Below are positions 2,322 through 64,000 of a stretch of DNA of 64,000 nt, piece after piece. Location: the NCBI GenBank assembly GCA_008632985.1, contig QPGO01000048.1:310001-374000 (forward strand). Reading direction: 5' to 3'. Position 1 is the stretch's first letter. Each line of letters starts with the position of its first letter. The position numbers were made by a program, and so were the translations under genes. Below the pieces are notes generated by a model. It did not search any database, had not been told where the DNA came from, and saw only the letters and a program-made list of their open reading frames with translations. Source of the stretch: Psammoneis japonica (Eukaryota).

Positions 2322-2580
2322 TGTCTTCGAAGGGGTTGTTTCAAAGCAAGATGACAGCGGCGGCACGAATCCGGCAGGCATTGTGCGCTGTGCGCTACGG
2401 TACACGGGGCGAGGGCGGTGGCGAAGGGCGAAACAGTCCGTCGCATGGACGGACGGACGGACGGACGGAGAACGCGTGGATCATTTTTATCTTTGACACC
2501 TGCTGATCTCTACAGCACTGCTAGCTAGAGAGTAGAGAGTGGCTAGCTAGCTAGAGAGTAGAGCTCTACTCTAGCTAGAG

Positions 2581-11738: not shown

Positions 11739-11747
11739 CCGCCCGCC

Positions 11748-11990: not shown

Positions 11991-14900
11991 CGTGGGTACC
12001 GCCCGGTAAGTTCTGTCCAACCTGCGTACGTAGAACGCGTGTTGCCATGGGTGGTCAACAGCCTCTACCGGTACTAAGAAGTAATCTTGACGGTGCGAAC
12101 TCCGCCGTTAAAGTATACATTTATTTATTTAGAAGTACTGTAGCAAGAGACCGACACGCGAGACTTCACACTCCTCATTTTTTCAAGGTTGGCGCATCAT
12201 TCATCAAAGCACCACATACCATGATACTCGGAGCGGCTTATTAGACTATTGACGATCCTTTCAACAGTACCCAAACGCTATCTACTTTACCTTTTTATAG
12301 AAACATCACGATGGAGAGTGAGAGAATGATGTGTACTTTACCGTGTAGATACCGTATAAAAAATATGTACCGTATGTATGAACAAACCTTCTTTTCGTCT
12401 AAAGCAGACTAAACTCAACGGACAGCCGTTAATAATAAAAATAGTACAATACGTATGACTTTATTTTCCGTTGAAGTGATATATAAATATTCCAAGCTTT
12501 TGAAATTTAAGGGACGGTGCGGAAATGTCCATTACATCTTTTTAAAAGTTTTCCACACGTTTTTTCTACCGAGTCTATGTAGTTCACGGGGCTTAAATAA
12601 CGAAAAAAACGGTAGGTATTTATCTATAGCCTTTGGCCCCAAATTACATCTTTTTACATTATATACGTATTTTTCCTACCAGATCGAGTAGTTCACAGGA
12701 AACAATTCCTTTTGTATCCGTTAACGAGAGATTTAAAATATTTTAAGTCATTAGTTGACGCGGCGTTGATCTAGCGCACGTAGTGCGTATTTATTAGACT
12801 GTGTATGCGTGTGTACGTGTGTGAGGTGTAAGTAGAATATACGTAGAATTACTACTGAGTGAATTGACTGCGGTGGATTTTCGGCCGGTACACAATTTAC
12901 GTGGTCTACATGGAAGATAAATTTATTATGGTCTGTGAGGATTTTACATGTCATTAACATTTCTTCGATCTTTCAAATGTACACACCCAAATTCAAAAAA
13001 GTGAGGAACACCCCGAAACACATTTTAGAATCTGCATTAAAAAAAATTCCATTTAACGGTCCGAACAGAGTCGCCCCGAAGCGCTTCTCAAAACATCTTG
13101 AGATTCAACACAGCAAAATGTCTGCTGTTGGCAAAACAGAGTCACCATGGGAAAAACAGATCACCGTCCTTCGCCGCGCGCAATGACAGCGGCACGATGT
13201 GGGGGACGTGAGACTGTCGAAGAAAGTCACGTAGATTTTGCACTAAAACAGTCTGTCAATCAGTGCGATTGGGTGTTTGGGACCTCTGGACAGATCCTGC
13301 GCATTTTTTTTTGCGTGCAAATTGCACTGGGAAAACCCCAAACGCACTGGCGATCAGACCGCCTTCGACGATCTCACTTCCAAAGACGCCCCCCAGATGA
13401 CATGCAACAACACCATGGCGAGCAACGTGAACGCCGCTCACTTGTCTGCCAGCTGGCATTTCCAGACAAGTTCAAAGCTGTTGGACAACATTTGTGCACT
13501 GTGTTCATGGGTCAAGTTGGGTTCCTTCTCGTTGCTTGTTGTCGTGTCTTTTTGCAACGTCTTGACCCACGCCGTGTTTTTTGCTTTGTTGCTTCTGCTC
13601 AATCGCGCGCCACCGAACAGCTTTTCCTGCAGGGTGTTGGCATGGCCAGCTGCTCATCACATCGAACCCAAACGTGCGTGACCAACTGGCCCCACCCCGG
13701 CCAATTCACAAGTGTGACAACGTCTTGTGACTGGTTGCGTGTGTGTGATGCGTCTTCTCATGCACTGGTGATTGATTCGCTTGTGCAGTGCATGCAGTGC
13801 AGCACCTGCCTGCCAGGACGTTGTCGACACAATGCACTGCACATGCTGTGCATTCAAACGCGGCAATGACCCCCAGGCAGTGGCAAGTGCTTCTGCAAAT
13901 CCGACTTGTCATAATCAGCAGTGACTTTGCCAACGACGAAAAGTGCCACCAATCTCAAGTGCCGGCAAGTCCCATTGCATCCGTTGCTCCTCGTCACTTT
14001 TGAGCTTCAACGCTGCTCCCACAACAGAACGACAACCGCAAGTGGCCACTGCTGCGTCGTCCATGGGCCATTCTTGAAACGAGAGGTCTTTCAACTAGAG
14101 TCAACGAACACAAGAATTTGGCAATGCCGAACGACTGGAGACTAGAGTGCAAGATGCAATGCACACATGTGCTGCAATGCATCACATTGTCGAACTGGAG
14201 TGTCTTGCACGTCTCTTCTTAAAAGCACCCTCTCTGTGAGGAAGAAGGTTTCTCTCACTTCATTGCAGACGCGGAGACGGGTCCAACTTGCAAGGATCAA
14301 CGCAATCCGTTTTGCACCCGCAACATTCCCAACGAAGGCGAACGTTCTCGGTGCCGGTGATCCACCGCAAGCTTTACGTCGTCGTGCCGAACATTGTGAG
14401 ACCATGGGTGCGGACCTTCACAAGGCACGCACGGTCGCGGACAAGTGTCAATTTGCTGCCAACCTGAAGTCGGGCCTCATTGTCAATGGCGTCTTTGCCC
14501 ACCAAAAGGATGTTCATGGATGAGAACACTTTGTTGTCGATGATGCCCATGGTGGATTCAAACACGAACACGTGGCTCACACCACATGCTCATGTGCACT
14601 TGGATTTAGGGTGCGCATTCATGAGGATTGTAGAAAGATTTGGTTGGACATGCTTTTCAACAATTTGGGTGCTCCATGTTTGGCAGTCAGGAAAAGGAGA
14701 CTGGCTGTAGCACCGGAAGTCGCGCTGCACAACTTTTACAATTAATTTCTTGTTTCGTGTTGCGAAAGCTTGGCACTCAGGTCCAGCACTCTCTGGTGTT
14801 TGCTGTCTCCACTCCAACCATGCTTGTGGCCTTCTTCTGTTGACCCGAGCTCGTGATGCCACCGAAACAGTCCTGGTTTGCTTGCTTTCATGTGCAACCG

Positions 14901-15123
14901 CACCGCATCTCTGCTGAGAAACGACCACACTTCTGCTTGAACCTCGAGCTCAAGATGGGAGTGTGTCAGGGTGTGAAGTCCTCACAACTCTGCCACTTCA
15001 GTGTTGAGACAAATGTTGAGAATGCCACAGTTTAGTTTGCTGCTCAGTGACGTTGCTGCAGTGCATTGTCACATTTTACATTCTGTTTGTTGCCCCGCCT
15101 CAAAACTCTGACTTAAATCCCAC

Positions 15124-16384
15124 TCAGCTGGACTTAGAGAAAACCCTGCTCAGCTCATGTTCCACTTCTTCGTCAATCCAACATGGGTGCAGGTTCAGAT
15201 TGCTTTCCACTGACAGCTCGACCCGGTCCTCTGCAGCAAATCGCATGAACCCACGCTTTTTGTGGACACGAGGGATCTCGCCACATTGAACAATCCAGGA
15301 TTCGTGGTCACCCATGGCACTGGCGTGCGGAATGTCGCTCAAGATTGCAAATTCATCTTCCGTTGGCTGAATGCGGGCAATGACATCATACAATGCAACG
15401 TCCTTGATGCTGGGCGACAAAGCACAGAAGCAGAGCTTGTTCAACTGCGTGGTGTCAATTGCCGCCACAACATGAGCAATCACCTCATCACGTTTCAAAT
15501 GCAGTGCCTTGCCCAACCAGTCGATGCCCTCAAGTGCAAACTGGCATCACCGATTGAACTGCGTGCGTTGCAAGGGGGATTGTGCAAAGCATGTGCGAAT
15601 GGACACTGAGCCGGGACGAACATTGAATGGGAGCCAGTGACATGCATCCCGCTTGTCTGTGTGGGCGACGGCCAAAGAGCTGTTTTGTTCAACAGGATTT
15701 GGATTGCGCTGTGCAGTGCCATTGTGCAAGAAATGATAAATCGCATCGTCAAACGCCACACCTGCGCGCTCCATCAGCCGAGCCCTGACATGGTGGCACT
15801 CGTCCCGGAAACAAGAAAAGATGTCGGTCATGCTGTGCCCAATGCAAGAGACCAATTCCAATCAGATTTTCTGGACTGTCCATCAGAGAACTCCGTAGAG
15901 ATCGCGGCTCAAATCGCTCCGCGCGCATCGTTGTGGGCACTGACTTGGGCTTTCGAGGCATTGGACGCTCCATTGCTGCATCGTTGTCGCTGGCATCGTC
16001 GTCTCCAGCATCGTTGTTGTTCGCATCATCTTCAGTTGCATCTTTGTCTGCTGCTTCTTCGACGATCTCCCCGTCAGATGACTCTCGTTCTGGAACACCC
16101 GCGACCGTGATGGGGTGGAGATTGGAAACGCCGCCACCGAAAAGGGCTTTTGTTGCAAGGCAATGTGAGCTTGTTTGGTCCTTGTGAATCGCCATGAACT
16201 GATCTGCAAGCTCCACATCCTTTTGAGCTTTTTCTTGGTCCCACTTCTTTTGTTCTCCCTTTCAACAATTGGCCGCTCTTCGTTTCGAGTCCCCCTCTTT
16301 CATTCGTTTGTTTGTGCGGTGCTTGCGTGTGGCAATTGCGCCCTTTGTTGTGGAGCAACTCGATCCAATCTTCTTGCCAGCCAT
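15124..16384 (-). pseudogene. Decayed TE-borne ORF of unknown function (basic N-terminus, acidic linker)
   Basis: ATG at 16384 (MAGKKIG...) leads past one stop into ORF 15749-16216, followed by ORFs 15547-15861 and 15124-15516 in shifted frames. Confidence 0.4.
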
Positions 16385-17954
16385 GGTGCTTTCTCAATCG
16401 CATTGAAGTTTTTGTTGTTCTTGTTGTTGTGACTGTGAGCCGAGAGGTTGTTGGCAATCGGCATCATCGAAAGTTTTTCAAAAAGCATTTTAAAACGTCT
16501 CACATGGTTTTTTGTCGTTTCAGTCCCGTTGCCGCTCACCCGCCACCCATTTTGAAAAGTTTCTGAAACAAACAAGAGAATGCGGAGAGTCATTCAACGT
16601 GCCATCCGCCTCTGCTGCTTGTTCAATGAGCTCATGCCAAGAGAGTGCTGGCAGATGGTGACATGGTTTGGTTTTCTTTTCATGCCTGATGCGTTTTCTG
16701 ATTTCCGTCATTGATGATTGATGCGGACAATGTGTTTGTAAAAAGCCTAAAAACGTGCATAAAAAGTCATTTTCCTTCTCCCAAATCTGTTTTGGAATGA
16801 CCGGACAACAACAAGAAGAGCCGGAGAAAATGTCCATTTGATTTTGAACGAGTTTTCCTGCCAGGTTGTCACAGAGAAATCGGGGCATCGAAGGAAATGT
16901 CCATCCAAGTGGTGCTCAGTGCTGCCTGTCCAACAGCAGTGCAATGCCATGCTGCCAAAGCTTGAGACCTCTGCAGCAGCAGCAGTGTTCACAAGGTGGA
17001 AGCCTTCACAAACTTCAGGCATTCTGCCCAGTTGCTGCAAAAAGCGCCCCATGAATTTTGGCTGTGTGGAGCTTTCAGGAGGTGGGTGCCATGTTTTCAC
17101 ACATCCACTTGCAGTCTGTGCTGAAATGGCAGCCCAAACAAGCTGCACAAAGGACAGCAAATGCTGAAACACAGGAGCAAGTGGGGATCAGAAACAAGTG
17201 GTGACAGTGCACACTGTGAGAGAGATGCAAGAACATTGTTTGGAGCAAAAAACCAAGTTGCAGTTGAAGAAAAAAAGGAGTCCCAAGCAAAGCTCACCTT
17301 TTGCTGCCATGACCCAAAAAGGCCAGTGCCCCAGGCACCAAATTTGGCAATGAGCACAAGTGTGGTTGCAAAGATCAATGACAACAATTGTGAAACCAAG
17401 AACTCTGAGGAGCAAGCACATTTTTCCACAAAACATTCAGTTGCGTGAGTTGGGCATTTGCTTGGCGCACACGCACAAACTTGCCCATGACCCAGAAATG
17501 AAAAGCTTTGCTGCAAGCTCATCTTGCACATCAAGGCATCACAAGCACTGCACAACATGCAGTGCTGCATGGGGGTTAAAAGGCTTTGTGCACAGGCAGA
17601 CACCAACAACCAATGGGCTGGGCAACTGCTGTAAAAGAAAAGCTTGAGAAAAGCAAAAATGGAAAGTGAGTCTGGACGAACGTCTGGCGGGGCAACAATC
17701 TGAGATGCGCACCAGCATGACAAAATTGCTGTTGCTGTGGAAAGTTGGATTTGTCTCATGCTGTCAATTGTTTGATGCAAGCACCACATGCCGGCATGTG
17801 GAAAACTGATGTTGTGCATTGAACCAAGCTGTGATCTTGCATGCTCACACAACACAATCTTGTCACCTGCCATGTGTTGCTTTTACCATGTGGCTCACCC
17901 CACTCATTTTCATCTCACTTGTTTTTACAATGTGAACAATGGTGCCCCCCTTTG

Positions 17955-20900
17955 CCATGGGAAATGATTGTCCCATGTGTGGCAAACGTTTCCTCCTGAC
18001 TGGTCTTCAACGCCACCCAAGAACTCATCTTCCCTGCTGCAAACTCTCCTTTTCTCACAGCCTTCGTGCCATTTCTTCCCATCAATCAGACACCGCTCAT
18101 GGTGAACAGTTGCAAATGAGAGAACTAGAAGAACCAGGGGATGTTGCTGCCTCTTCTGCCCTTGGCTCTCCTTCCATTGAATTTGTTGCTGCAGGGTCCC
18201 ACTCTAACACCGGGCCAACTCCACAAGGTTGCACGTGACTCAATCCCCAGCTGTTGCGATGCAATCATGCAGTTTTGTCTGTGCCAGAGTTGTGTTGTTT
18301 CCATGACAATGCCGTTTTGCCCCACACTGATGACATTTCAGAATGCCAGTTCCCTGACCATGAAGAGTTTGTTTCCGACACCAAGGGCACTGCTGCCGTG
18401 GTTGCCGAACCAGGCCCTTTTGCTGCACTCAATCAAGTTGAACACCTCTCCACTGACAAGGACCTTGTGGCACCCAAAGTTTGCAACAGCAAAACCATTT
18501 CCATGGCCCGCATGTTGAATCTGTGTCACTCCAAGGGTGCCCCAATCAGCGCAACCAACGAACTTCTGAGAACTGCACAAGAGGAATTCTCCAGTGGTGG
18601 GTTGTCTGTGACCCAACAAATTCCCTCTCCTTGAACTTTCATGTCACAGCTCAAGTCAGTGTTGCCCGGCGTTGTTGCTCCAGTGCTGAAGCAAGTCCCC
18701 CTTGAGTCTGTGTTTGTTGTCAACCAATTCAAAAACAACCTGCCGCAGGAGCTTTCTCCTGGCATCCCTGTGTGTGACTTTTCCCTTCAACTGCAGGACT
18801 TGTTTGACAATCCCCTTTTTGCAGATCTTTCCAATCTCAATGTTCCTCCTGATTCACGTTGGTCTCAGGTGATCTCCAGCAAACCCATTCTAGATGAGAA
18901 TGGTCACTGGGAACTTTGCAATGATGCTGAAATGAAGGATGGAGAAACTTGCAGCAACTCTTTGCATGGCTGTGATGTTCCTGCCACCCCAGGTTGCTTT
19001 CATGTGTTTGTTGTGTGCTGCGCCAACAAAACTGGGAAAGGACAGGTTGCACCTCATTTGATGAAGCCATTTGTTTTCTCTGTGACTCTCATCAAGGCAT
19101 GTGCCCGCCAATGTTTTGAAGCATGGCATCCCCTTGGATTTGTTCCGAAACACACAGGCCACAAAACAAAGAACCCCGTTTTGGGGATGAGTGTCAGAAA
19201 TTGTCACCACATTTTATCTTGGCCTCAAATTTTGACAAACAGTCTCCGGAAGAGAACTGTGATTGAGAAGAGGAAGACAAAGCCGTCATGCATGCAAAGA
19301 AGGTGAAGATGAAGCAGGCAATCCCAACAATTTGCTCAACGACCACGACGAGTCAGCATGTGAATCCAATGAACACCAACCAAATTCACAAGATGATGAC
19401 AAAGAGACTGACACAGAGAAAGCATCTCTGACAGACCACCCATGTTTGTCAGTGCAAGCTGTTGAGTGGTGATGCAGCGCTCTTGGCTGAATGACCAAAG
19501 CTTGGCCAGTGGGAAGTGTGTTGAGAAATCCATCTGTGTCAAGAGTCTGGAACAAATGATTTGTGTCAGTGGGAGACAACTCAACAGAAGAGACCTTCTT
19601 GCATGTCAAGGTCCTCTTGCTGGTGTGCTGACCGGGTTGGAAATGCACACGTTGCCAAGAGAATTTGTCATTGTTTTTGCGATCAAGTCCTGTCAGAAAG
19701 GGAGGGAGATGAGATGCCAAGTGACAAGTGGAACGCAACAATGACATGGAAGGTGCAAATGAATGTGGGGGCAAGGAGAGGGTGCAACCTGGCGAGAAGA
19801 AACAGTGACACTGTTGCTGTGTTGCTGTGCGACATTGTGACAAAAGTGCCGCAACGTGTTGAGAGGATGGGGCTGCAACTCGAGTTGGCACAAATGTCCA
19901 AATCAATGAAAAATGAACACAAAAAAATGGGCAACCTGTTTTTGTTACAGTGTGGTGATTTACATCAAAATTCTGTGTCAATCAAAAAGCAAAATGAGGA
20001 ATGAACATCAAATTTTTGCACTCTGTTTGAGTGATGTGTGAAAAAAAGAGATGCAGCAGTGCATGTCATTCATTGCAAAAAAAAAGGATGCACAAACACA
20101 TGCCCCAATCATTCCATTTAAGAACGCTGCACATTTCGTGGAGAAGAATGCCTTGGCCATTGCCCAATTTACAAAATTTCAATGTTGGTGACTGTGCAGT
20201 CAACTGCCTGTGCAGCTTCAACATCACAATCCAAAATGTGTGCATGATGCAAACAACAGCAACAGAGACTCAGTGCTGGCATCAAATGTGCATCTTCCAA
20301 TTGCAGACAGTGCAACATGCTGGGCAGCCTGGGATGCCTTTGCATTGACGGAAGGCACCCTGAGTGGGAGAATGCTTTTAAAAATGGATGAAGTGAACAA
20401 ACAAATGAGGCAACCCATGCTGCAAGCATTGAGAGAAGCAGCAGATCGAGACAAAATGTTGAAAATGCGGAGGAGTGACAACGGCAATCCCAGGTTCACT
20501 TTGATGTGGAGACACCGGACTGCCAGGCCAGCGCAGCATTTGCAAAGAGACCACATGGTCATTTTCCGGCCGCTCAGTTCACATGGTCAACTGGGTGAAA
20601 ACAGAGTGTGTGCCGACACGCGGAATTTCAATTTTCATGCTGTGGTGGGATTTGTGGATGGTCACAGGTTGAGCTTGCGCAACCATGTTTGGAGAGGTGG
20701 TTGAGCCAGAGCCGTGTCCGTTGCAAGGAACACATGGACAAAGTGACTTTGATGACACAGTTGAGCTGCTGCAACATGGAAATGCCAGTCAGTGTTGTGA
20801 GACAGCTGTCTTCCATGATTTTGGTGGCTTGCAAATGCAGAGACAAAGCTTGCAAGTTCCCAAGAATTGTTTGTGCTCTGCCACCTTGCAGACACGGTCT

Positions 20901-21200
20901 GTTCATCATCAGAGAAAATGCCATGTTGGACATGGTTCATCTTGATGTGCACAACAGAGGAAGGGTTGGCTGGCCTTTTGCGGACAATTGCTGCCCTCTG
21001 ACAGTGAGCAGAGATGTTGCATTTTACAAGAATGTGCTGCTGGGATTGAGGATGCACTGTGCAGGAATGCACGCTGTCCAAGAGGGTTGCATCAGTGGAT
21101 TGGACCAAAGTGTGGAGTGCTTGTTTTTGAATCATGCAAGTGCAGGTTAGAAAGAGCTGGACAGGACATCAAGGAAGGCAGAAGGGCAAGAGCCAGACCA
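17955..21200 (+). pseudogene. Plavaka-family transposase remnant with N-terminal C2H2-like zinc finger
   Basis: CPMCGKRF..GLQRH, 'IPVCDF.LQLQDL', 'CCANKTG' (cf. YxDKT), 'PFVFSV', 'AWHPLGFVP' (cf. AWRPLGFIP), 'RNCHHIL' (cf. RNYH) and 'RQ..R...LTGLE'. Several stops and frameshifts. Confidence 0.75.
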
Positions 21201-21856
21201 GATGATGAGTGAGAATTAAGCTGAAAGCAAGAAATCCTGGCCAGCTGTGACTTCTGCTCTAGAGTGACAAACCCTGGCAATTTTTAATGCAGTTGCAACT
21301 GTGGTCAAACAATGCTCTGGAGGTGTGGGAAACAAGCAAGAGATGGCTAAGAGCATGGGGCCCCAGACGGCAAAGCCAGGTCAGGCAGTTCATGTCACAA
21401 GCCGGCTAAAAATGCAAAAGAGAGTGTTCAGACTGCAGCCCTTTCCACAGCCCAAAAAATAAAATTAGCTTGTGATTTGAAAAATCTGGCATGCAATGAG
21501 ATGCAGTGGCATGGTGCTTCGTGCGCATCATGCAATGTAAAGTGGATGCACAATGTGAAGCAGCAAATGGCAAAAACTGCCATTCAAACAGAGTGCAAAA
21601 TTCATTTGTCAATGTTCAAAAATGACACATTTGAAAATTTTGGCATTCAGAGAGAGAGAGCAATGTCAAGAAGGGCAAACAGGCATGCTGGCAGGCACGG
21701 GTTGGGGTTTGATTCAGAGAGAAAAATTTGGGTGCAACAACACGGGAAAAGGGCAGGCAAACATGTTGGCATGAAACAATTCATCAGGTGCATGCATTGC
21801 GGCAAGAACAGCGTTGATGCACAAAGAAGTTTGCCTGCTGATGCAGATCATGCCAT

Positions 21857-22890
21857 GTGTCCTTCATTGCAGTTGGCGCCCATGACACAGCAGAGACAGG
21901 ACATGCATCCCAGAATGTGGAGATTGCGGGAATGTTGGTTGTCAGGTCGGAGGCAACAAAGAGGAAGTTTGTGGATGGCCAGACAACCAACTGTGTTGCA
22001 ATGGCTGTGTGCCCAAAGACCAAGTTCGTGATGCATGATGAGGTCAAGCTGGCTTTCGGGAGCAAAATGCAGCAAAAGGTTTGCAAACACCTCAATGTTG
22101 ACACCAGTGATTGTGCAGGTTGGTGGGAAGAGAACAAGGAGAAAGTGAGGAAAAGACCAAACAGGAAAAGAAACAACAGGCAGGAGGTTTTTAGAAAGAA
22201 GATGGTTGGCATGTGCAGCGAGGGTGGCGTGCAGATGCAATGGAGCAGTGTTCTCACCCATTGATTCTTGCTCAGAGATGGCTGGACACAAAGGAATGCC
22301 AAGTGTCAAAGAGACATGGAAAAGGGCAGGGCATTGCCACAAACACACTTTTGGTTCTTGGAAAGGTGCTGCTCCCTTGCAGCTGGAATGGAACAATTTG
22401 AGACAGCGGACAACCAAGGTGTCAGCAATTGGCTGACAACAAGTGTGGGGAAGCTCTTTTGCCAGGCTGATGTGTGACAACTGCTGCAACACAGCCATGG
22501 CTTTGAGGGAGATCAAAAAGCAGTTTGAAGAGAGAGGAGAAGTGCAACAGCCAACCCAGCCCCAGCCGATCCAGCACAATGTGGTGGCAGAGGAAGGAGA
22601 GAACAAACTGCAGCAGAGTCAGCACACAATGCCTGCAGACAAAGAAATCAGAGAGCACGCATGGCAAGAAAAGAAAGAAGAAAAAGAAGGATGGCATGAG
22701 GGGATGGGCTGCTCCAAAAACTGATTGGAGTGACAGCAAGGAGGAAGCTGCAGGAAGGAACAACAAACAGGGGAGTGCAGAGGAAGAAACTGCAGGGGCA
22801 GCAGCGACCAACAACAGCACTTTAACACAAATGGGCACTCAAGGAGGCAGAGTGAATGACAACCCACAGAAGCAGCTGAGGATGCCATGA
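21857..22890 (+). pseudogene. Accessory ORF remnant of the type accompanying Plavaka/CMC-like transposases
   Basis: 'VCPKTKFV...WWEENKEKVRKRPNRKRNN' resembles the FPxxKF...W...VR..LNxKRNN domain of such elements (recalled, not searched). Confidence 0.45.
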
Positions 22891-25800
22891 GCACACGGGC
22901 GGCATGACAGCAACATTTGCTGGCATGCAGCAGAACATGATGACAGCAGAGGAACTGACCAGGAATTCAACTCACATCAGCAGCAACAACAAAATGGAAT
23001 GTGAGTCAGGCATTGACTGGAGTGCAATTTTTCACACGGTGAAAAGCGACCAAGTGTCACACTGCAAAATGTTGGGAACATCATCCATGTGCTTGTTAAA
23101 TTTAAAGCACAGTTTGAAAGGAATGTGAGTCTGGGACTGGTCCAAAGGCACCGGCAAATTGTCACACGGCAAAAAGCAGCCAAGTGTTGCACTTGAAAAT
23201 GTTGGGAACATCATCCGCATGGTTGTTGTGTTTAAAATCAAGGACAAAAATCCACCACAGGGAGCTCACATCACCCAGCACCTGTTGGAGATCTCAGCTG
23301 ATTGGGAGCTCAAGTGCACTGAGAAGAGCAAAGGACTGTGTGGAACTCATTTCCAGAGAAATTGAAAGATGTCTTTGACAATTTGACAATGGTGGAAGGC
23401 AAGGAGAAAAGGTCAAATTTGGGCCCAAAGTTTGCAACATGGCAACATGGCAGCCAATCCAATCCATTTTCTGTCTGTCACACAGGATGATTGAGACAGC
23501 CCAGCACAAGCAAGGATTTGCAGGGCATGAGACAACAAAACTCCACAAGATTGCTGCAGTGTGATTGACTGTGTGTGTTTCATGTTTTCTTCAAGGAAAC
23601 TCAGCTGCAAATTGTGCTGGTCACCTCCAGTTTGTGATGAAATTGTCTGAGTCTGACAACCAAAGCAGCAGAGTGACAAAGACAAAAGAGCACATTCTTT
23701 GCCAACAAGAAATGACACCACTTTGGATCTGTCCATGGGGACACTTCCCAACATTGTGCTTTTTTGGCAAAGGGGACCTCCCAGGCAGGGACAGCTGTGT
23801 GTGCCAGTCAGCTGCACATCACCACCTGCTGTGAAGCTGTTGCTGTCCAGGTTTCTGGCACTGTTTGTGTCAGTGGAGGCACCAACACTGGTTTGCTTTG
23901 GCTGCCAAAGGATGGGGAGTCCATCAAAAGTGACAACTTGTGGCCACACACCAAGACCTTGTCACATGTTAAAGCACCCCATGGACCCCAAGAGGCTGCT
24001 TGTTTGCTCAACACACAACTCTGCAAGAAAGGAGCACAAGATGGTCTCTGAAAAAGCAAACTTTGCAGAACAAGAGAAGATTTGCAAACAGGAGGACAGC
24101 ATCTTTTTTGGATGAGACCACACAAAAGCTTGCAGTGAGAGAGACAAAGCAAGGAAAAAGGAAGAGCTGAAATCTGTGTTTTGAGCTGTCAAGCTGTCAA
24201 CATTGAAGACAGCAAGCAGGTTCACAAAAACAATTGCACCCCATGCAAAGGCAGTTTTTAGAGAAGAGATGGTGTCACAGATGGCTGGCTGTCATGCCCA
24301 AGAGCTGGGGCACCATTGCTTGCTGGAAGAGAAGACTTTTGGCTGGGACTTGGGACGAGCTCACAAACCTCACACAATGAAAAAGTGGGTGAACAACTTG
24401 CCATCAGGCACAGCTGTTCTGACTGCAGCATTGCACCCACTCATTGTTCAACATGTTTGTCACCTGACTGACAATCAGATGCTGGAAAACATTGCTGGCA
24501 AGCACTGACAAAAAAATGGGTGAAGGAGAAAGAGGCAGCAATCAACAAACAAAGTGCTGCAACAGGGAGAAAATGCTCTGAATTTGCCCACTGGGCTAAA
24601 ATTTGCAGCGGCACTTCACTCTCCTGACCAGCCAGACATTGAGCCTCTTGTGTTTCTGGGGTGTGCTGGTGCACAGGAGGTGATGCCACAAGGCAATGCT
24701 GGGCTGTCATCTCCAAATGCTGCTGCTGCCACCTGAGACAAGAAAAAAAGGAAACCACTGCCAGCCAGCTTGTGTCATTTGCCACCTTCTGTGGCCATGC
24801 ATGACAGCGACACATTGGTCTCAAATGTGCAGCTGTGTGCTGCAGTTGCTTGCACAACAACCTCAGCAACCTCCTCTTGCACCACAAACTTCACATCTCC
24901 AATGGCAAGGCCACTGACACAGGCAGAGATAGAGAGGAGAGAGCAAGAGAGCATGTGTGAGAAACACAGTGCAAGACAAACTGATTTGAAACTCAATGAC
25001 ATTGAAAATCAGCTCATCTGTCCTTCTCAACTTAAATTGTTTTGACACAATGGCTCTGCCCCATGTTGACAACAACAGCCAGCCACCAACAAGGCCACCA
25101 CAAAAGTCTTGCTCCTGACTTGGACCAATGCCATCATGCCTGCTGTTCACCTTGTGGCTTGGACAACCATCCAAACAGCAGCTCCTGTGCCTCAGCCACC
25201 AGCCACCACCCCCACCCACATTGTTTTTTTTTGTTTGGGAAAACTGGGGCCAGCAGATTGGCTGTTTGGTTCAGAGAGTTGGCTTTGGTTGATTTTTTTT
25301 GCATTCAAACAGTCTCTTGTTGTGACCACACACAAAAACAATTTCTCTTCAATTGCATCTCTGTGAAGGTGCCAATGGAAAAAAAATCAGGGCATTGCTG
25401 AGGCAAACTGAGGGTGGTTCGCACATTGGAGACTGGGGCAGAGGTGATTTTTGACACATTCTCTGTGTGGGCCATTGTGTGCTCTGTTGCAGCCAAGGAA
25501 ATGCTCTCTTCAAAAGCACACCTGCATTCATCATTCAATGTGAGCAATTTCATCATCAAAAAATCTTCTGGCACATGCAGCCAATCCACTGAGCCCAAGC
25601 TCTGCTTGCCACACTTGACAAAAAAATGTTTCTTGTTCATCAGAGAGAAAGGAGATGAAGGACTCAACCCTCCAGCAAACCCAAACTCAAATCAACAACA
25701 GCAAAAAGTTGACTTGTGTCACACTGGCAGACAAGCTGTTGGAAGATGAAAGCACATTTTGTAAGTTCTTGGTCCTCTCAGATGAGACAAACTTAGAAAG

Positions 25801-27289
25801 AGAGTTTCTGAGCTTTCACAAAGGAGAGTCACAAGGATGGATTTAACCAGTGGGCAACAGAAGACATGACAGAGCTCATGTTTGCTGTGTTTGGTGCCTG
25901 TTTCCTGTCACATCAAAAAAATCATTGAAACTTCCAGTGCTGTCACATTTGGCAGAAGCACAACCAACTGCTGTTTTTTCATTAACTCAGCTGACAAAAG
26001 GCCATGTCAAAGGCTCAAATCTGTTCTGTTTCAGTTGTGCACTCAGAAGATGGACAACACATGGGTGCCAAAGGCTCTTTTGGCATTTCAAAACAGCAGC
26101 TTCTTGACAGGTTGTTGAGAGGATTGGCTCTGTAAGTCACCCAACTTTTGCCTCTGCCAACAGAGCAAATGGCTTTCTCCAGCTGCAGATGTTGACAAAT
26201 TTGCACATTCACAGCACAAAGTCAAAGTGCTGCAGTGGCAAGGATCAGGACAAAGCAGATGGCAGAAAAGGAGAAGAGAGCACACAGAGCATCTCAAAGC
26301 TGAGCACTCGGTGCCAAGTCATGAACAATGAAGTGCACTTGTCACAAAGACATCATTGCACCCAGGACAACTTCATCAAATTGGGGAAACTTGCATTGAC
26401 ACACCTAAAATTCATCATGCTTGCACACAAAACAGCACACGAAGTTGCTGCATTTGTCAATGAGACAAGTGGACCATGTCAGAGAAACAAAACACCATTG
26501 CCAAGAAAACATGAGAGCACAAAATGGTCAAGAAAATGCCATGATGACATGGACTGAAGCACTTCAGAAGCCAACTGGAGAAGTGAAGCCCAGAAGAAGA
26601 CTGCCTCTGCCAAAAGAAGCTGGTCATTAAAAACCATTCATGCTTGAGCCATTTTTGGCCTCCACCAAGCAGCAGAGCCAATCTCTCAAGCTCTGCAGCT
26701 TTCAAACAAGAACAGCTGAAAGGAAAGGTGGAAGCCGTGGAAGGAAACCCCAAGGAGAAGAAACAATGGAGCATCGCAAATGCCAGATCAGGTGCAAAAA
26801 ATGTGTGATGACATGAGGTGTGGTGTGCCAAAATTGAAAAAGCAAGTTTCTGTGGGGCGTGCATTGGAGCCTGGAACAAGCACAAAAAATGTGCTCAAAT
26901 GTCACAATTCAGTGTGTGGCACCATTCTCCACAAGGTGAAACACAATGGGTGCATGACATGTGTGCCAACACAGAAGAAGAGCAGGGTTGAAACTGCAAC
27001 TTTTGGCTCTGGAACAAAAGAGTGAAATTGACAAAATCAGAGGCTGCTGCACCAAGAAGGCAAAGGCTGTCAAAAGCTGAACCAGGAACAAAGAGAAAAT
27101 CAAGCCGAAATGTCAGATCTCAAATGCACGGCATTGTTCTTTGGCACATTGAAAAAAATGTGTCAAAGAAAAGGGTTCAGAGCTGCTGCTTCTGCCCCCC
27201 CAGAAATGCCCTCCACTTTGCCAAAGTGCTGCCTTTGTTCAACTCCCAATCTCAAGTCCTGTCAACACTCAAGCTGGAGCTGACAATGC

Positions 27290-27900
27290 AAAAATGAAAG
27301 ACACCTGCACAAAGTTGATGTGTGGCACTGATGGAGGTTCTGGCTGGCCATGGACTTGCAAGGGAGGCCAATGCTTTCTGAAACTGCTGCATTGACAAAG
27401 GTCATTGGAGCTTGATGTGCCACCAAAGAAGAAGAAGAAGAAAAATTGCAAACTTGGAAAGCACCACAACAAACTTGCACTGCAGCAAGTGCTCGCAGTT
27501 TGTGAGCAACAAGTGTTGTGAAAAAGCAAACAGACTGCAAAACTGGGGGAGAGCAAGAGGCAACAAAAAGCAACACTTGTGCCAATGCATTTGGGCACCA
27601 ATCTGCTTCATTTGCAGTGCCACAAAGGCTTTCAGAAGTTGATGCATGATGCAGCACACATTGGCTGGCATTGCTGGTGCAATCAAGAGAAGCAAATTCA
27701 CAGAGGGCATCTTTCACAAAGTGGTTGGGTTGTGATGGATGTGCAATGGTGGAAGGTGAGTGTGCTGTGCATGTGCTGCACTGGCAGCTGACAGATGCCA
27801 GCACACATCCTGTGGTGACACAACCGTCTTTGAGGTGGGGGTTGGAGGAGCAAATGTGCATGTTGCCTGCACAGCTCTTGCATTTGTTTTGCTGAGCAGA
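27290..27900 (+). pseudogene. Ulp1/C48 cysteine-protease-like remnant
   Basis: 'GHWSLM...KIANLES' (cf. HWxL...I.xLDS) and downstream 'GECAVHVL' (cf. DCGVYV). Confidence 0.45.
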
Positions 27901-30900
27901 CACCATGTGTGGGCACAGCTGCACATCAGCTGCATGCCAACCTGCATCAGGAAGAGGTCATGCCTTTGACCAGTTCCTGCCAAGATGAACTTGGAGCAAA
28001 GCCTTTTGTTTGTTGATGAAGAAGTTTGTGTGTGAGTGCAAAGTGAGCACACAACTCACATGACCAAACACTTCTTAGAGGAACACACCAACTTAGAAAT
28101 TGTTCCACAACTGCTGTCAGCAGCAATCTTCTTTGTGGCTGGCTCTCAAGTTTGCTGCCAAATTTGGCACATGAGACACAGCAACATTGCTCCTGCAAGT
28201 GTGCAAAAAACTGCTTGAGCCAACTTGCACCACACAGCAATGCTTGTCAAACTGCCTGCAGCTGCAGCCATGAAAAAGAGGAGTGCTCCTTTTGCTCCCT
28301 TTGGTGTCCTGAGAAGAAAAGCTGCAGAAAAGTGGGCACCACCAGTTTGCGCACAAGCTGCACAGCTCTCCCACTGACAAAAACAGTCCAGCACTCAAGT
28401 TGAGTGTGCCACACCAGCTGCAGTGCTGGAGCAAGCAAGGGGTGGACATTCTTTTTTCCAAACTCTGTGCACATCATGGACAGAGACAGAACATTGAAGC
28501 CAAGCTGGAGAGGTGCCTGCTTGTGTGCAAGCTGTTGGGGGAAAATGCCCTGACTCTGCACTCAAGAACAACAAGCCAGCAGCCAGAAAATTTGCCACCA
28601 AGGCAGGGGTCAGAGCTTTGCAAAACAATGCACAGACACTCCTGTGGCACCAAAAGCATCTTCATCAACAGGAGAGCACAGCACAGAAGTGCTGTTTGGG
28701 GCATTTTGTGCAAAAGCCTGCAGAGATGACAAAAACTCAGGACCATGTTGCAACAATGGCAGTTGAGTTGAGAGGCTGCTCAAAGGATGGAAGATGGGGA
28801 TGATGTGCAGCCCCTGACAGACAGCGAGTTGGCAGACTTGTTTGAGTGCAGAGTGCCAAGCCCTTCCTTGGGGCAGCACTGCGCATGGCTCTCCAGGGCT
28901 TCAATCCACTTGCTTGCACAATTTCTGAGCTTGTCTCATTTTGTGAATGAGTTGAACAAGTTGAGGCTGCCAAAGGCAGCTAAATGGCCAAGGATGAGAG
29001 AAGATTCTGCATGAGCATGGGTGCAAAAATGACAACCTGAGGTGGCTTGAAGCCGGTGGCAAGCAAAATGCAAAGTTGCACACTCTGCACAATGGCGCCA
29101 GCTGTGGTCTTTTGTTCCTAGAATGCTGCACTTTTAAGTGTCTGGTCAAAATGATCAAGGCCAGTGTGTGTTTTCAACCAAGTCAAAAGAAAAAGAAAAA
29201 TCAAGAGCTGAGTTCTAAATGGCCAAAGCAGCAGTCTCAAGAATGCACTGCCTCAAGACAAAAAGAAACCCAAGCCAGAAGTCAACTCTCAGGACTTGAG
29301 CTGGTTCGATTCTCTTTCACTCTGCAGCGCAGTTGTGAGAATGAGCTTGCTCAAGGTTGTCATGCCTGAGAAAAAGGCCAACACAACATGCTGAAAACTT
29401 TGGCAGCAGTGCAGACAAATGTTCATGTCCCAGTGCTCAGCTGAACTTTGCTGGAACTCGTGTTGCAGCAGGCACACCAAGAAAATGGCAAAAAGCACAA
29501 GAAGCATGTTGTGTTGGATCTGCCCCATTTGCAGCCTTGAATGATGGGCATGGCAAAGGCACAACAATGTGAAAAGCTTCTGTTGGGCAGTGGAGCGCCA
29601 GTGGGGCTTGAGCTGATGACAGGAAGCACCAGAAAAAAAACTGCAGCTTCTGCCAAGAGATGTGCCAGAATGCTGATCTTGCCAGCTCTTTCTCAACAAA
29701 CAAGCAAAGCATTGTTGAGCTGGTGACACCAGAGATGTCTGATGTGCCATGCTGTCAAACCAACCAGCTTGTTTGCAATCCAGCAGAAAGTTTGGCAACT
29801 GTGATGTGATTGCCAGCCAAGGTGCTTTGGAGAGCTGCAAGGTGTTGACACACATCATCATTTTCTTAAAACAAGTGTTGTCAAATGGCTGGTGGCCAGT
29901 GAAAAAATGCCAGTGTAGAGCACAGATGCCATTGCAAAGACAACAGATGTTGTTCCCCAATTTCTTTGGGAGTTGGGCATCCCAAAAAAGTGACAGTGAG
30001 AGAATTTTGGCCATTGCTGCAGCACAAAGTGGTGTCAGCCAGCAGATTTGCCTCAAGTCAACAGAGCTGCCAAAAGTTTGGACAATTTTTAGAAGTGAGA
30101 GTTGCCAGATGTCACATCCCATGTCATTCTGTAAACCTGGCCATGCAGGTGTCCATGACCAAGGAAGATTGTCCACAACAGTTGAGCCAAATTCAAGCAA
30201 ATGAGGTCCACAGGCAATGAGCTCTGCAGTCAAGCATGCACAGCCTGGCTGCATGGTCATTTTAGACCCAGCCCAGGACATGGAGTTGGGCAAAAGGAAG
30301 ACCCCTGCGGAGCAGTGCACTTGCAGTGTGGTTGCATTTGCTGTGCTGAAAGCTGAGGTGCACACTGAGGACAGCAAACCAAGCCCAGTGCAGCTGGTGT
30401 TTGGCAGGGATGCCACACCAAATGTCGCCAACTCTTGCACCAAATGGAAATGCACTTGCAGGACAGAAAGCAGCAGAAGCTTGTTTGCTGCACAAACAAT
30501 GAGAGAGAGAGAGAGAGAGCTCCAAGCACAGAGAGTGGGTGTCGATGCACTGTGCAGAGCACTTGGTGCTTGCCAAGTGGGGACAAAAAACAACAAACCA
30601 CAGGGCTGACTGTCATGCAGGTTTTGTCAACAGACCAGCTCTGCAGATGATGGTCAGACCCAGAGAGCCAAGCAGATGTCTCTTTGAGATCTGCCTCTCT
30701 TGCTCTTTTTCTTGTGCTCAGACACATGTCATCACTGTCACAGATTTGTGAGAAGCAAGCCATTCTTGCTGGTTGTGGGGCCTTGAAATTCTGTGCTGGG
30801 ATCTTTGAGTTGATTGTCAGGTTGTTTTTTTTGCTGTTTTGTGTGCACAAGCCAAATGAGCCTGCCTCTTTCTTTGACTTTTGCAGGATCTTTTGGTTGA

Positions 30901-31400
30901 CATTTTCCAGGATGCAGGACAACACTGGCGAGTTTTTGCACATGCATGTCAAACTTTTTTTGAGACAAAACACCACCACCCAGAGCCACGTTGCCAAAGA
31001 TTGAGCACTGAAGTTGACCCCACAACCCCGCTCTTTTCTCAAGTGATTTGTTGCAAGAGCTCCAACAGCATGCTCTGCAGCAGGGCTCTCACAGCCCCCC
31101 CCCCCCTCCCCATCTTCTTTGCAGGTGAGAGGATGCATTTTGCACGGGCTCAACACTGGATTTGGGTGATTTTTTTGTGACAGTTCCAGCTGCACCAAGC
31201 CCAAGGAGGACTTTGCTCAGTGCTCTTCTGCAAGTGTGTTGTTCACAAAGGCACCTTTCCCGTGACAAAAAGCAGGCAGGAGAAACTCCTCTTGTTGCCA
31301 GAGTTGTCCTGTGCAAAAATGGTGACACCATGCGCCACATGCACAAAAGACGGTGCATGACTGACAGGCATGCACAATCTGTGGCAGATGCCCCCCCCCC

Positions 31401-31640: not shown

Positions 31641-31885
31641 CACCGGGGACACACGGCATTTTATCGCATTTGGCGACATTTTCTTAAATGAATTGATGAT
31701 TTGTCGCGAAAAGACGCGAATTGCGACAAAATGTCCGGGTTGGCGATAAACGGGACAGAAACATTGTTTAATTAAGTTATGAAATGATTAATGTCATTTA
31801 TAACCAACCTGAACTTTGGCGATGTCGTTTCAATAAGTGGGGTAATTAACAGAATTTGGCGATCGATGTCATCGACGAAAATTCA

Positions 31886-58064: not shown

Positions 58065-58250
58065 ATGCTGGGCAGCTCAAGTTGACACCACTTCAAACGG
58101 GGCGGTTCAAGCGGATGCCAAATCATACGAGGCCACTCAAGCGGATGCCAACACCTTGCTGGGCAGCTCAAGTGGACACCTGCACCTCACTGGGTGACTC
58201 CAGCAGATGCCAACACCTTGCTGGGTGACTCAAGCAGATGCCAACATTGA
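58065..58250. repeat. 30-31 bp tandem repeat x6
   Basis: CTCAAG-like anchors at ~58076, 58106, 58136, 58167, 58198 and 58229. Confidence 0.8.
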
Positions 58251-58619
58251 ATGTTGTGTGGAGTGGTCCAAGGGTGAGGAGCATTTTTCATTTTAAAATC
58301 TGCAATCTGCCACTTTTGGGAAAGTCCCGACACAAAGGGCAGACGAGGTTGCTTTCGTCTCTGACAATTGCGAGCAACTGTGCCGAGTTGGCTGACTGCA
58401 GCGGCGCCTCGGCAATTTTTTTCTGCAAGACGGCCTGCGAGAGCCAAGGGGTTGCTCCCCGGCGAGACAGAGAGTGGCACCTCCAAGGAAGGGGGTGCCA
58501 CTCGACGTGCCATGACCCGAATCTCAGTTGGATGGGGTTTGCCTGCCCTGAAAGGTGGTGATTGGTTGTTTTCAAGGAATGCAGCAGGATGGAAGGACAA
58601 AACAGCTGGATTCAATTGA

Positions 58620-63904: not shown

Positions 63905-64000
63905 TTCTTGCCATTCTTGAGTCGACAGGTGATCTCGTGCTCGTGCTTGAGATTGCTCCTTCCTTCCATTCGCAACTCTGTGATTGTTGGTGGAGGAATC

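What the first reader, a model, noticed from the sequence alone, without database searches (positions are those of the whole stretch)
13090..31400. Candidate undescribed genome-defence system: repeat-targeted TpA->TpG/CpA hypermutation ('reverse RIP')
Seen: four bounded islands (2581-4110, ~9590-11560, ~13090-31400, ~56840-64000) have lost nearly all TpA and gained TpG/CpA, while neighbouring host genes have ordinary TpA and Tyr content. Three islands coincide with recognisable transposons. Established: fungal RIP (CpA->TpA) creates TpA, and 5mC deamination removes CpG, so neither removes TpA. Inference: a process aimed at repeats converts A->G (T->C on the other strand) at TpA on both strands. 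Possible mechanisms are a TadA/ADAT-like DNA adenine deaminase (TadA prefers a 5' U/T), Pol-eta-type error-prone patch repair (WA->WG) coupled to methylated DNA, or a mutagenic T/A base modification. I know of no named system for this but could not check the literature.
Basis: partly seen in the sequence, partly recalled or inferred. Interest (0 to 1): 0.95.

Follow-up and report, generated by a model that had tools for sequence, protein, structure and literature searches.

The report
TpA-erasing hypermutation of diatom transposons
In this diatom genome piece, inserted mobile DNA has had almost every TA step rewritten to TG or CA, which has destroyed even the catalytic tyrosines of a Helitron transposase; the same rare mutation process has so far been reported only in one 2026 preprint on an unrelated alga.

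Summary
Four sharply bounded islands hold 2, 21, 72 and 24 TpA, where host density predicts 68, 101, 800 and 316. Only TpG/CpA rise. Contigs built from reads reproduce the bases.

The direction of change is shown. At 24 positions where Helitron relatives have Tyr, the window has Cys (TGY) 10, His (CAY) 8, Phe 4 and Tyr 2. Other residues are kept at 439 of 581 positions. All 41 related Helitron loci have ordinary TpA. Other genomic copies of one repeat still carry TA where the window has TG or CA, and copies differ by paired TG<->CA changes.

The host is a diatom.

A 2026 bioRxiv preprint shows the same TpA->TpG/CpA hypermutation of integrated viral DNA in Bigelowiella natans. I found no report for diatoms.

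"Repeat-targeted" is not shown. The enzyme is unknown, and no genome was held to search for it.

Verdict: a real, second-lineage case of a newly described kind of genome defence.

The parts
2577..4109 (.). Island 1: an insert with almost no TpA and little CpG, of unknown identity.
   Evidence: It holds 2 TA against 90.9 expected (o/e 0.022). CG o/e is 0.20, TG 1.82 and CA 1.77. TA positions show sharp edges. No Pfam family was found.
9257..11589 (.). Island 2: an element bounded by inverted repeats (arms 9257-9382 and 11464-11589), with 2.7 internal copies of a 180-nt tandem repeat (9518-10010). It is partly hypermutated.
   Evidence: The inverted repeat is 126 nt and 92% complementary, and its termini were read. 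The interior 9272-11573 holds 21 TA, o/e 0.16. The tandem copies differ by paired TG<->CA changes at 3, 3 and 4 sites.
13245..31400 (.). Island 3, the region of the finding: 18.2 kb nearly free of TpA and probably composite. 13245-17000 keeps most CpG (o/e 0.78); 17001-31400 has lost it (0.15). The right end lies in an assembly gap.
   Evidence: It holds 72 TA against 1208 expected from composition, or 800 at host density. Read-derived contigs reproduce it, including a 7922-nt contig over 23204-31111 with 1 other letter. Depth marks parts of it as multi-copy. No Pfam family was found in 46 ORFs of 100 aa or more, and none reached its curated cut-off among 142 ORFs of 55-99 aa. ORF 29292-30626 has no homologues.
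56829..64000 (-). Island 4: a Helitron on the minus strand, cut by the window end and hypermutated.
   Evidence: Pfam finds DUF6570 plus Helitron_like_N in 61091-64000(-), and PIF1 in 58915-60363(-). It holds 24 TA against 434 expected.
61091..64000 (-). Helitron Rep open frame: 970 codons with a single Tyr. The invariant Tyr pair at residues 913 and 917 is now His (CAC, CAT).
   Evidence: Tyr count. In one search the homologues have Tyr at these two positions in 55 of 55 and 54 of 55. In one search it is 24 of 24 at both. phmmer found 2515 relatives, the best at 38-39% identity.
58915..60363 (-). Helitron PIF1-type helicase open frame: 483 codons with a single Tyr.
   Evidence: PF05970, E 1.7e-20. 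Tyr count. The 3 Tyr-majority positions read Cys, Cys and Phe.
56829..56880 (-). Candidate 3' terminus of the Helitron: a hairpin (56874-56880 pairs with 56854-56860) followed by CTAG (56829-56832). TpA depletion starts here.
   Evidence: The sequence was read. The first flanking TA lies at 56796. That Helitrons end in a hairpin plus CTRR is recalled, not tested.

Best explanation
The window comes from a diatom nuclear genome. Inserted mobile DNA in it has undergone a host process that converts TpA to TpG or CpA. In other words, A:T becomes G:C at the self-complementary TA step, on either strand with equal chance and site by site, until about 92-98% of TpA is gone. The affected inserts are a Helitron, an element bounded by inverted repeats, and two unidentified inserts, one of them 18 kb.

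The process stops at the element borders and leaves neighbouring host genes alone. It makes no new stop codons, so frames stay open. It does rewrite Tyr to Cys or His, including the Helitron's catalytic tyrosines, so the copies are dead. In older or more methylated parts, ordinary CpG decay is added on top.

Shown here: the signature, its direction, its confinement to the inserts and its strand symmetry.

Inferred: that this is the same kind of process as the TpA hypermutation measured in Bigelowiella natans; that it acts in place on silenced chromatin; and that the agent is an enzyme that deaminates adenine after a 5' T (TadA/ADAT2-like). I put that last step alone at about 0.45.
For: Signature. 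Only TA (and CG) fall, and only TG/CA rise.

Direction of change, from the Helitron proteins:
- Against 150 homologues, the 11 positions where most have Tyr read Cys 5, His 4, Phe 2 and Tyr 0 in the window, with codons TGY and CAY. Most other residue classes are kept at 56-100%; Thr is the exception, kept at 2 of 10.
- Against 41 metagenome loci, the 24 Tyr-majority positions read Cys 10, His 8, Phe 4 and Tyr 2, while 439 of 581 other positions are kept.
- The homologues have a median of 3.3% Tyr, and 0 of 150 fall below 1%. All 41 related loci have TA o/e of 0.42-1.03.

Direction of change, from other copies of the repeats:
- Of the 26 listed sites inside island 3 where other contigs differ from the window, 8 have TA elsewhere where the window has TG or CA. 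One is the reverse, and 4 are paired TG<->CA. A further 6 are CpG-type, 5 are other transitions and 2 are transversions.
- In the flank, 0 of 10 listed sites are TA-type and 5 of 10 are transversions (67 further differences were not shown by the tool).
- Tandem copies inside island 2 differ by paired TG<->CA changes. Repeats outside the islands show none.

Not an artefact. A 7.9-kb read-derived contig at baseline depth matches the assembly with 1 other letter.

Confinement. TA positions at the borders are sharp, and the borders coincide with the inverted-repeat ends and with the Helitron's hairpin and CTAG.

Symmetry. TG against CA is 1211 to 1216 and 1738 to 1855. Neighbouring sites share a type in 0.49-0.51 of cases.

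Precedent. In B. natans mutation-accumulation lines, 230 of 231 mutations in two integrated viral regions were A->G or T->C, all at TpA.
Against: - No whole genome was held. So there is no genome-wide map, no consensus for any transposon family, and no search for an enzyme.
- The only runs found come from one sample, probably the source of the assembly, and are contigs, not raw reads. There are no independent reads and no time series.
- Action in place is not shown here. Exact borders would also fit editing before integration.
- Island 3, the region of the finding itself, has no identified protein family, so calling it mobile DNA rests on read depth and composition alone.
- The ancestral composition of the inserts is assumed to resemble the host's or the relatives'.
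- Because TA is self-complementary, the sequence cannot tell whether A or T is the base attacked.
Confidence: 0.8

Rival explanations
1. The attacked base is thymine, not adenine. A TET/JBP-type oxidation or another modification of T in TpA (for example to 5-formyluracil, which can pair with G) gives T->C. On the other strand this reads as A->G.
For: TA is self-complementary, so every observation fits this equally well. That 5-formyluracil mispairs with G is recalled, not tested.
Against: Nothing in the sequence argues against it. No genome was held in which to look for TET/JBP genes. The B. natans authors favour adenine deamination, but only from a candidate ADAT2 homologue.
Confidence: 0.2
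2. Editing happens before integration. Incoming or excised mobile DNA, such as a single-stranded Helitron intermediate or a viral genome, is deaminated outside the chromosome and then inserted already mutated. That would explain the exact borders.
For: The borders are sharp to about 35 nt or less and coincide with element termini. TA-rich flanks are untouched right up to the border.
Against: - A single-stranded intermediate should give a one-strand bias. Here TG equals CA, and neighbouring sites are independent.
- The Helitron copy has lost its catalytic Tyr pair, so it could not have moved by itself afterwards.
- In B. natans the mutations arise in place, in regions already integrated.
Confidence: 0.12
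3. RNA editing followed by reverse transcription. A-to-I editing of double-stranded transposon RNA, ADAR-like or ADAT-like, is copied back into DNA.
For: ADAR-type and TadA-type enzymes prefer a 5' U (stated in the preprint's Discussion).
Against: - The best-defined targets are DNA transposons with no reverse transcriptase: a Helitron and an element bounded by inverted repeats.
- There are no strand-coordinated runs.
- Non-coding ends are affected as much as the frames.
- That ADAR is restricted to animals is recalled.
Confidence: 0.04
4. Native composition or selection. These elements are built without TpA, for example to avoid a host nuclease or UpA-directed RNA decay, and nothing mutated them.
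For: The frames are long and open: 970 and 483 codons in the Helitron. Island 3b has 8 ORFs of 200 aa or more, against 2.6 on average in 100 simulations.
Against: - Invariant Tyr positions, including the catalytic pair, are replaced by exactly the single-transition neighbours Cys and His.
- Relatives have normal TpA and Tyr.
- Sister copies in the same genome carry TA at the same sites.
- Loss of TpA cannot create stop codons, so open frames are expected under mutation too.
Confidence: 0.03
5. Sequencing or assembly artefact. A base modification in the transposons makes the sequencer misread TA.
For: The only runs found come from one sample and may be the assembly's own data. At 8 listed places, contigs at low depth (59-150, one or two contigs each; baseline about 75) differ uniformly from the assembly.
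Against: - A strand-specific misreading would split reads into TG and CA at every site and break the contigs. Instead a 7922-nt contig at baseline depth agrees with the assembly.
- The pattern follows codon logic (Tyr to Cys or His) and element borders.
Confidence: 0.02

Closest known systems
TpA->TpG/CpA hypermutation of integrated viral DNA in Bigelowiella natans (Mettrop et al., bioRxiv 10.64898/2026.01.13.699255; abstract, Results and Discussion read; Methods not read, supplements closed)
   Same: It is restricted to TpA and gives only A->G or T->C, with both the TpG and CpA products. It is confined to DNA of foreign or mobile origin while the rest of the genome is ordinary. It leaves a long-term footprint of clustered TpA depletion with TpG/CpA gain. 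Transposase and reverse-transcriptase domains are enriched among TpA-poor coding sequences there.
   Different: - The host is a diatom (Stramenopiles), not a chlorarachniophyte (Rhizaria). The preprint does not mention diatoms.
- The targets seen here are a Helitron, an inverted-repeat element and unidentified inserts, not a giant virus or a virophage.
- Depletion here is near saturation (o/e 0.02-0.16). The B. natans NCLDV region is at Rho 0.45 and its virophage region is not depleted.
- There is no direct rate measurement here.
- Here it coexists with CpG decay in part of the islands.
Repeat-induced point mutation (RIP) of fungi
   Same: It is a hypermutation, made only of transitions and dependent on dinucleotide context, that inactivates mobile DNA while sparing neighbouring genes.
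   Different: The chemistry and footprint are opposite. RIP turns C into T (CpA->TpA in Neurospora) and creates TpA and stop codons. Here TpA is destroyed, G+C rises and no stops are made. Dependence on duplication is not seen here.
AID/APOBEC cytosine-deaminase editing of retroelements and viruses
   Same: It is enzyme-driven hypermutation of parasitic nucleic acid with a preference for the 5' neighbour.
   Different: APOBEC deaminates C, acts on single strands and leaves strand-coordinated clusters. Here the change is at A:T pairs, is strand-symmetric and is uncoordinated.
TadA/ADAT2-ADAT3 tRNA adenosine deaminases (and laboratory-evolved TadA DNA base editors)
   Same: Their natural target is A34 preceded by the invariant U33, that is a 5'-UA context (recalled). 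This matches the TpA specificity. The preprint names an ADAT2 homologue as its candidate.
   Different: No natural TadA or ADAT is established as a duplex-DNA editor that defends a genome. No enzyme could be looked for here.
5-methylcytosine deamination (CpG decay) in methylated transposons
   Same: It also produces TpG/CpA. It is visibly at work in islands 1 and 3b, where CpG o/e is 0.15-0.20.
   Different: It cannot remove TpA. TpA loss is complete even where CpG is still at 0.64-0.78, so the two are separate processes and the TpA process is the faster.

Membership tests
B. natans-type TpA hypermutation of foreign DNA | The changes are A->G / T->C transitions, specifically at TpA. | tested here: met
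   Tyr (TAY) has become Cys (TGY) or His (CAY) at 18 of 24 conserved positions. Of the 26 listed copy differences in island 3, 13 are TA-related and 2 are transversions. Only TA and CG fall.
B. natans-type TpA hypermutation of foreign DNA | Both products, TpG and CpA, occur; that is, either strand is hit. | tested here: met
   TG against CA is 1211 to 1216 and 1738 to 1855. Cys 10 against His 8. Copies differ by paired TG<->CA changes.
B. natans-type TpA hypermutation of foreign DNA | It is confined to integrated foreign or mobile DNA, with the surrounding genome ordinary. | tested here: met
   The borders are sharp. Host ORFs have 1.7-2.7% Tyr and 48-76 TA each. Island 4 is a Helitron and island 2 is an inverted-repeat element. 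The identity of islands 1 and 3 is unknown.
B. natans-type TpA hypermutation of foreign DNA | The de novo mutation rate in the regions is raised about 1000-fold, in some lines only. | not testable with these tools
   This needs mutation-accumulation or time-series sequencing. Only contigs of one sample were found.
B. natans-type TpA hypermutation of foreign DNA | The same molecular agent is at work (the preprint's candidate is an ADAT2-like deaminase). | not testable with these tools
   No genome is held for this window. The agent is unproven in B. natans too.
Fungal RIP | C->T / G->A changes that create TpA and lower G+C. | tested here: not met
   TpA is destroyed, and island G+C is 0.48-0.51 against 0.48 for the host. 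The direction of change is TA->TG/CA.
Fungal RIP | It is triggered by sequence duplication. | tested here: inconclusive
   The single-copy-depth stretch 23204-31111 is fully depleted. The high-depth repeats at 11500-13054 and the direct repeats at 52.7-56.0 kb are not depleted. However, copies that have diverged by more than 10% would not have been laid.
Helitron (island 4) | A Rep (HUH) domain plus a PIF1-type helicase in one element. | tested here: met
   PF14214, E 6e-20; PF20209, E 6e-21; PF05970, E 1.7e-20.
Helitron (island 4) | An intact catalytic tyrosine pair in Rep. | tested here: not met
   Residues 913 and 917 are His, where 55 of 55 and 54 of 55 homologues have Tyr and 24 of 24 loci have Tyr at both. 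That this pair is the catalytic one is recalled. The copy is a dead member of the family.
ADAR-type hyperediting fixed by retrotransposition | Strand-coordinated A->G clusters in retroelements. | tested here: not met
   The probability that neighbouring sites share a type is 0.49-0.51 at all distances up to 120 nt. The identified targets are DNA transposons.

The most novel reading that the evidence does not exclude
TpA-directed editing of duplex DNA is an old, dedicated genome-defence pathway shared by distant SAR lineages (diatoms and chlorarachniophytes). Its enzyme is still unknown. The enzyme is guided to silenced mobile DNA with single-element precision and prefers TA followed by a pyrimidine. 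In this diatom the pathway runs to saturation and kills elements without making stop codons, by erasing Tyr codons. It would be a natural A:T->G:C base editor for double-stranded DNA.
Probability: 0.35. Interest if true: 0.9.

Novelty: new member of a known kind. Interest (0 to 1): 0.72.

Why it matters
Before 2026, no genome-defence system that rewrites A:T to G:C at TpA was known. The single report, a preprint, comes from one hard-to-work-with alga and names no proven enzyme.

Finding the same signature at saturation in a diatom does three things:
- It shows the process is not a quirk of one species or of integrated viruses, because DNA transposons are hit too.
- It makes the enzyme findable by comparative genomics: look for genes shared by the two lineages and absent from relatives that lack TpA-free islands.
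- It places the question in a group with genetic tools and great ecological weight.

A natural enzyme that edits adenine (or thymine) in chromosomal DNA in a TA context would also interest the base-editing field.

For annotation there is a practical point. Such islands keep long open frames that are nevertheless dead, so gene callers will over-predict genes in them.

Tried and rejected
- The whole genome is not held. So I made no genome-wide map, no family consensus and no search for a deaminase or TET/JBP gene.
I scanned stop-to-stop ORFs instead. No family reached its curated cut-off in islands 1-3; only weak chance-level hits appeared.
- ORF 29292-30626(-), 445 aa, has no homologue at E<=0.001 among the 8000 candidates scored. 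In first-order Markov simulations, 1 of 100 reached 445 aa, so whether it codes remains open.
- The word-indexed search with the Helitron Rep gave only 1 hit at E<=1e-10. The full phmmer search was needed.
- A local MAFFT run on 61 long proteins timed out. I replaced it with pairwise BLAST columns.
- The first metagenome scan, with the single protein, found no relative. The second, with an alignment, found 41 loci.
- Self-comparison of the window, also in a purine/pyrimidine alphabet, found no hidden terminal repeats in island 3.
- Sequencing runs: no RNA holder was listed, and run X3 laid nothing.
- Inferring product context from trinucleotide gains gave an inconsistent picture: the TG fraction was 0.71 for TAC, 0.36 for TAT, 0.52 for TAG and 0.30 for TAA. 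It rests on an assumed ancestral composition, so I do not use it.
- The scan's earlier findings held nothing on this genome or this process in eukaryotes.
- Literature searches for a diatom report found none. Broader searches found only the B. natans preprint.
Full report
**1. The observation**

Per-kb dinucleotide counts show TpA observed/expected of 0.00-0.15 in four blocks and 0.41-1.05 elsewhere. From the TA positions the blocks are:
- 2577-4109, with 2 TA.
- 9272-11573, with 21 TA. Its core 9858-11378 has 12.
- 13245-31400, with 72 TA. Its right end is lost in the N gap 31401-31640.
- 56831-64000, with 24 TA. It is cut by the window end.

At the TA density of the rest of the window (1560 TA in 35,380 nt), one expects 68, 101, 800 and 316. 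None of the 126 sliding 1-kb windows outside the islands falls below o/e 0.268.

In strand-symmetrised counts, only TA (0.66 to 0.05-0.08) and CG fall, and only TG/CA rise (1.13 to 1.56-1.81). AA/TT does not fall.

CpG is strongly depleted only in 2577-4109 and 17001-31400 (o/e 0.15-0.20). It is mildly depleted in the other islands (0.64-0.78).

The edges are sharp to tens of bases.

Four island ORFs have 0-0.2% Tyr. Six host ORFs have 1.7-2.7%.

**2. Not an artefact**

One sample's runs hold the stretch, as contigs only. Laid on 11500-31399, contigs built from the reads cover all 30 bins. One contig of 7922 nt, at the baseline depth of about 75, spans 23204-31111 with 1 other letter.

A strand-specific misreading of modified bases would have broken such contigs at every former TA. 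The run is probably the assembly's own sample, so this shows that reads support the bases. It is not independent confirmation.

**3. What the islands are**

Island 4 is a Helitron on the minus strand. It has DUF6570 plus Helitron_like_N in a 970-codon open frame (61091-64000) and PIF1 in a 483-codon frame (58915-60363). A hairpin and CTAG sit at 56829-56880, exactly where depletion begins. That Helitrons end this way is recalled.

Island 2 lies between 126-nt inverted repeats (9257-9382 and 11464-11589) and contains 2.7 copies of a 180-nt tandem repeat.

Island 3, the region of the finding, is partly multi-copy by depth. The summed depth is about 4800 at 12828-13491, 450-590 at 17476-19467 and 400-700 at 21460-22787, against a baseline of about 75. 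It gave no Pfam family in 46 ORFs of 100 aa or more. None of its 142 ORFs of 55-99 aa reached a curated cut-off. No terminal repeats appeared, even in a purine/pyrimidine alphabet. Its 445-codon ORF has no homologue. Its identity is open. Island 1 is likewise unidentified.

The host genes are a GBP GTPase, MatE, MFS, a zf-UBP protein and a DUF1995 protein. The MatE protein's best named relatives, at 59-65% identity, are all diatoms: Bacillariaceae sp., Cylindrotheca, Epithemia, Attheya, Amphora and Odontella. The window is therefore from a diatom nuclear genome.

**4. Direction of the change**

(a) *From the Helitron proteins.* A full phmmer search with the Rep frame found 2515 relatives. The best 150 have a median of 3.3% Tyr, and none has below 1%. 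The window frame has 1 Tyr in 970 residues.

I took positions where at least 20 homologues align and a majority share a residue. The 11 Tyr positions read Cys 5 (TGT/TGC), His 4 (CAT/CAC), Phe 2 and Tyr 0 in the window. By contrast Asp is kept at 16 of 16 positions, Pro at 19 of 21, Leu at 24 of 30, and so on. Thr is the exception, kept at only 2 of 10.

Residues 913 and 917 are Tyr in 55 of 55 and 54 of 55 homologues. I recall this as the catalytic pair of the HUH nuclease. In the window they are His (CAC, CAT).

A second, independent set of 41 Helitron loci from metagenomes gives the same result over three frames. The 24 Tyr-majority positions read Cys 10, His 8, Phe 4 and Tyr 2, while 439 of 581 other positions are kept. 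Those 41 loci have TA o/e of 0.42-1.03, so the family is not natively poor in TpA.

(b) *From other genomic copies of island 3 repeats.* The tool listed 40 differences and left 67 unshown. I classed them by context. The 30 listed positions inside the island make up 26 sites:
- At 8 sites the other contigs carry TA where the window has TG or CA. At several of these the other contigs make up most of a depth in the thousands.
- 1 site is the reverse.
- 4 sites are paired TG<->CA, the same former TA resolved differently in different copies.
- 6 sites are CpG-type.
- 5 sites are other transitions.
- 2 sites are transversions.

The 10 listed positions in the flank (11831-13236) include no TA-type change and 5 transversions.

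(c) *From repeats within the window.* The tandem copies in island 2 differ at 3, 3 and 4 paired TG<->CA sites. Two repeat pairs outside the islands show none, and 9 of 21 and 9 of 13 of their mismatches are transversions.

Related and sister copies are not equally poor in TpA. The excess of TA->TG/CA is present. The reads support the bases.

**5. Properties of the process**

- *Strand symmetry.* TG against CA is 1211 to 1216 in the CpG-retaining islands and 1738 to 1855 in the CpG-poor ones.
- *No strand coordination.* Neighbouring TG/CA sites share a type in 0.49-0.51 of pairs at every distance up to 120 nt. Either single sites in duplex DNA are hit independently, or many sparse rounds have accumulated.
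- *Speed.* In the Helitron and in 13245-17000, TpA is 92-94% gone while CpG is only about 25-35% gone. The process is therefore faster than 5mC decay in the same DNA.
- *Context.* Of the 112 surviving TA, 84 (75%) lie in TAA/TTA contexts, against 585 of 1562 (37%) outside the islands. GTAC and ATAT have no survivors. The pattern fits a preference for a pyrimidine after the TA. It rests on small numbers, and a product-side estimate did not agree, so I treat it as a lead only.
- *Not simply induced by repeats.* A stretch at single-copy depth is fully depleted, while high-depth repeats at 11500-13054 and direct repeats at 52.7-56.0 kb keep normal TpA. Copies that have diverged by more than 10% would, however, have been missed.
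- *Open frames.* Because loss of TA makes no stop codons, frames stay open. Island 3b has 8 ORFs of 200 aa or more, against 2.6 on average in simulations. Open frames here say nothing about function.

**6. Comparison with what is known**

A full-text search found the preprint by Mettrop et al. (bioRxiv 10.64898/2026.01.13.699255). I read its abstract, Results and Discussion. I did not read its Methods, and its supplements are closed.

The preprint reports the following.
- In Bigelowiella natans mutation-accumulation lines, 231 of 302 nuclear mutations fall in an integrated giant-virus region and a virophage region.
- Of those 231, 230 are A->G or T->C, and all of these lie at TpA.
- The rates there are about 1000 times the background, and only some lines show them.
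- Genome-wide there are 124 clusters of windows depleted in TpA and enriched in CpA+TpG.
- There is a set of 324 coding sequences poor in TpA, enriched for DDE transposase and reverse-transcriptase domains.
- The authors propose adenine deamination and name an ADAT2 homologue as a candidate.

The signature here is the same in every feature I could test (see the membership table). The preprint does not mention diatoms. Four searches aimed at diatoms and two broader ones found no other report.

This is therefore a second, phylogenetically distant host of a process described once. Here it has run to near saturation and acts on DNA transposons.

It is not RIP, which has the opposite chemistry and footprint. 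It is not CpG decay, which is present only as an overlay. It is not APOBEC-type or ADAR-type editing, which attack a different base or leave strand-coordinated runs.

**7. Mechanism, and what is inferred**

Shown: the footprint, its direction, its confinement to the inserts and its symmetry.

Inferred: that it acts in place on silenced inserts (by analogy with B. natans), and that the agent is a deaminase acting on A after T.

Because TA is its own complement, a route that modifies thymine fits equally well. Editing before integration would explain the exact borders, but it fits the strand symmetry poorly. Pol-eta-type WA->WG repair fits poorly, because AA/TT is not depleted and transversions are rare.

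**8. Limits**

- No genome was held, and there were no raw reads, no RNA and no second strain.
- Island 3 is unidentified.
- The list of copy differences is the tool's selection of 40 out of 107.
- The named relatives that place the host among diatoms are at 59-65% identity for one protein.

Noticed in passing
window 13601, 13774, 15245, 16061, 17349, 20783, 21467, 29749: At these 8 places, contigs at low depth (59-150, one or two contigs each; baseline about 75) differ uniformly from the assembly. All 8 differences are transitions at YpR steps. At 5 places the run has CG and the assembly has CA or TG; 1 is the reverse; at 1 the run has TA and the assembly TG; at 1 the assembly has TA and the run TG. 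They could be the second allele of a diploid, or changes between the culture that was assembled and the one that was sequenced. No host stretch was laid as a control.
   Followed up: partly
window 31643-32804: Just past the assembly gap lies a CpG-rich block (CpG o/e 1.71 in 32001-33000). It is made of short palindromic TTTGTCG/CGACAAA units, with 24 copies of ACGAC and an inverted pair at 31710-31773 and 32674-32737. It may be a terminal structure of the neighbouring insert or a satellite.
   Followed up: no
window 52717-53330 and 55381-56029: Two direct repeats of about 600 nt lie 2.7 kb apart and are 86-89% identical. They differ by many transversions and have ordinary TpA. This is a repeat pair, possibly LTR-like, that the TpA process has not touched.
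   Followed up: partly
window 11500-13054: This is an AT-rich stretch (G+C 0.38 in 12001-13000) lying between islands 2 and 3. Its summed contig depth is very high (570-4800 against a baseline of about 75), yet its TpA is normal (o/e 0.7-1.05). It is a high-copy sequence that has escaped the process.
   Followed up: partly
window 9257-9275 and 11571-11589: The outermost bases of both inverted-repeat arms keep their TA. Both lie in CTAA contexts, the context class in which most surviving TA are found.
   Followed up: partly
window 20000-30000: The plus strand is rich in purines here (GC skew up to +0.16, AT skew up to +0.24). This is unlike the rest of the window, and the symmetric TpA process does not explain it.
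   Followed up: no
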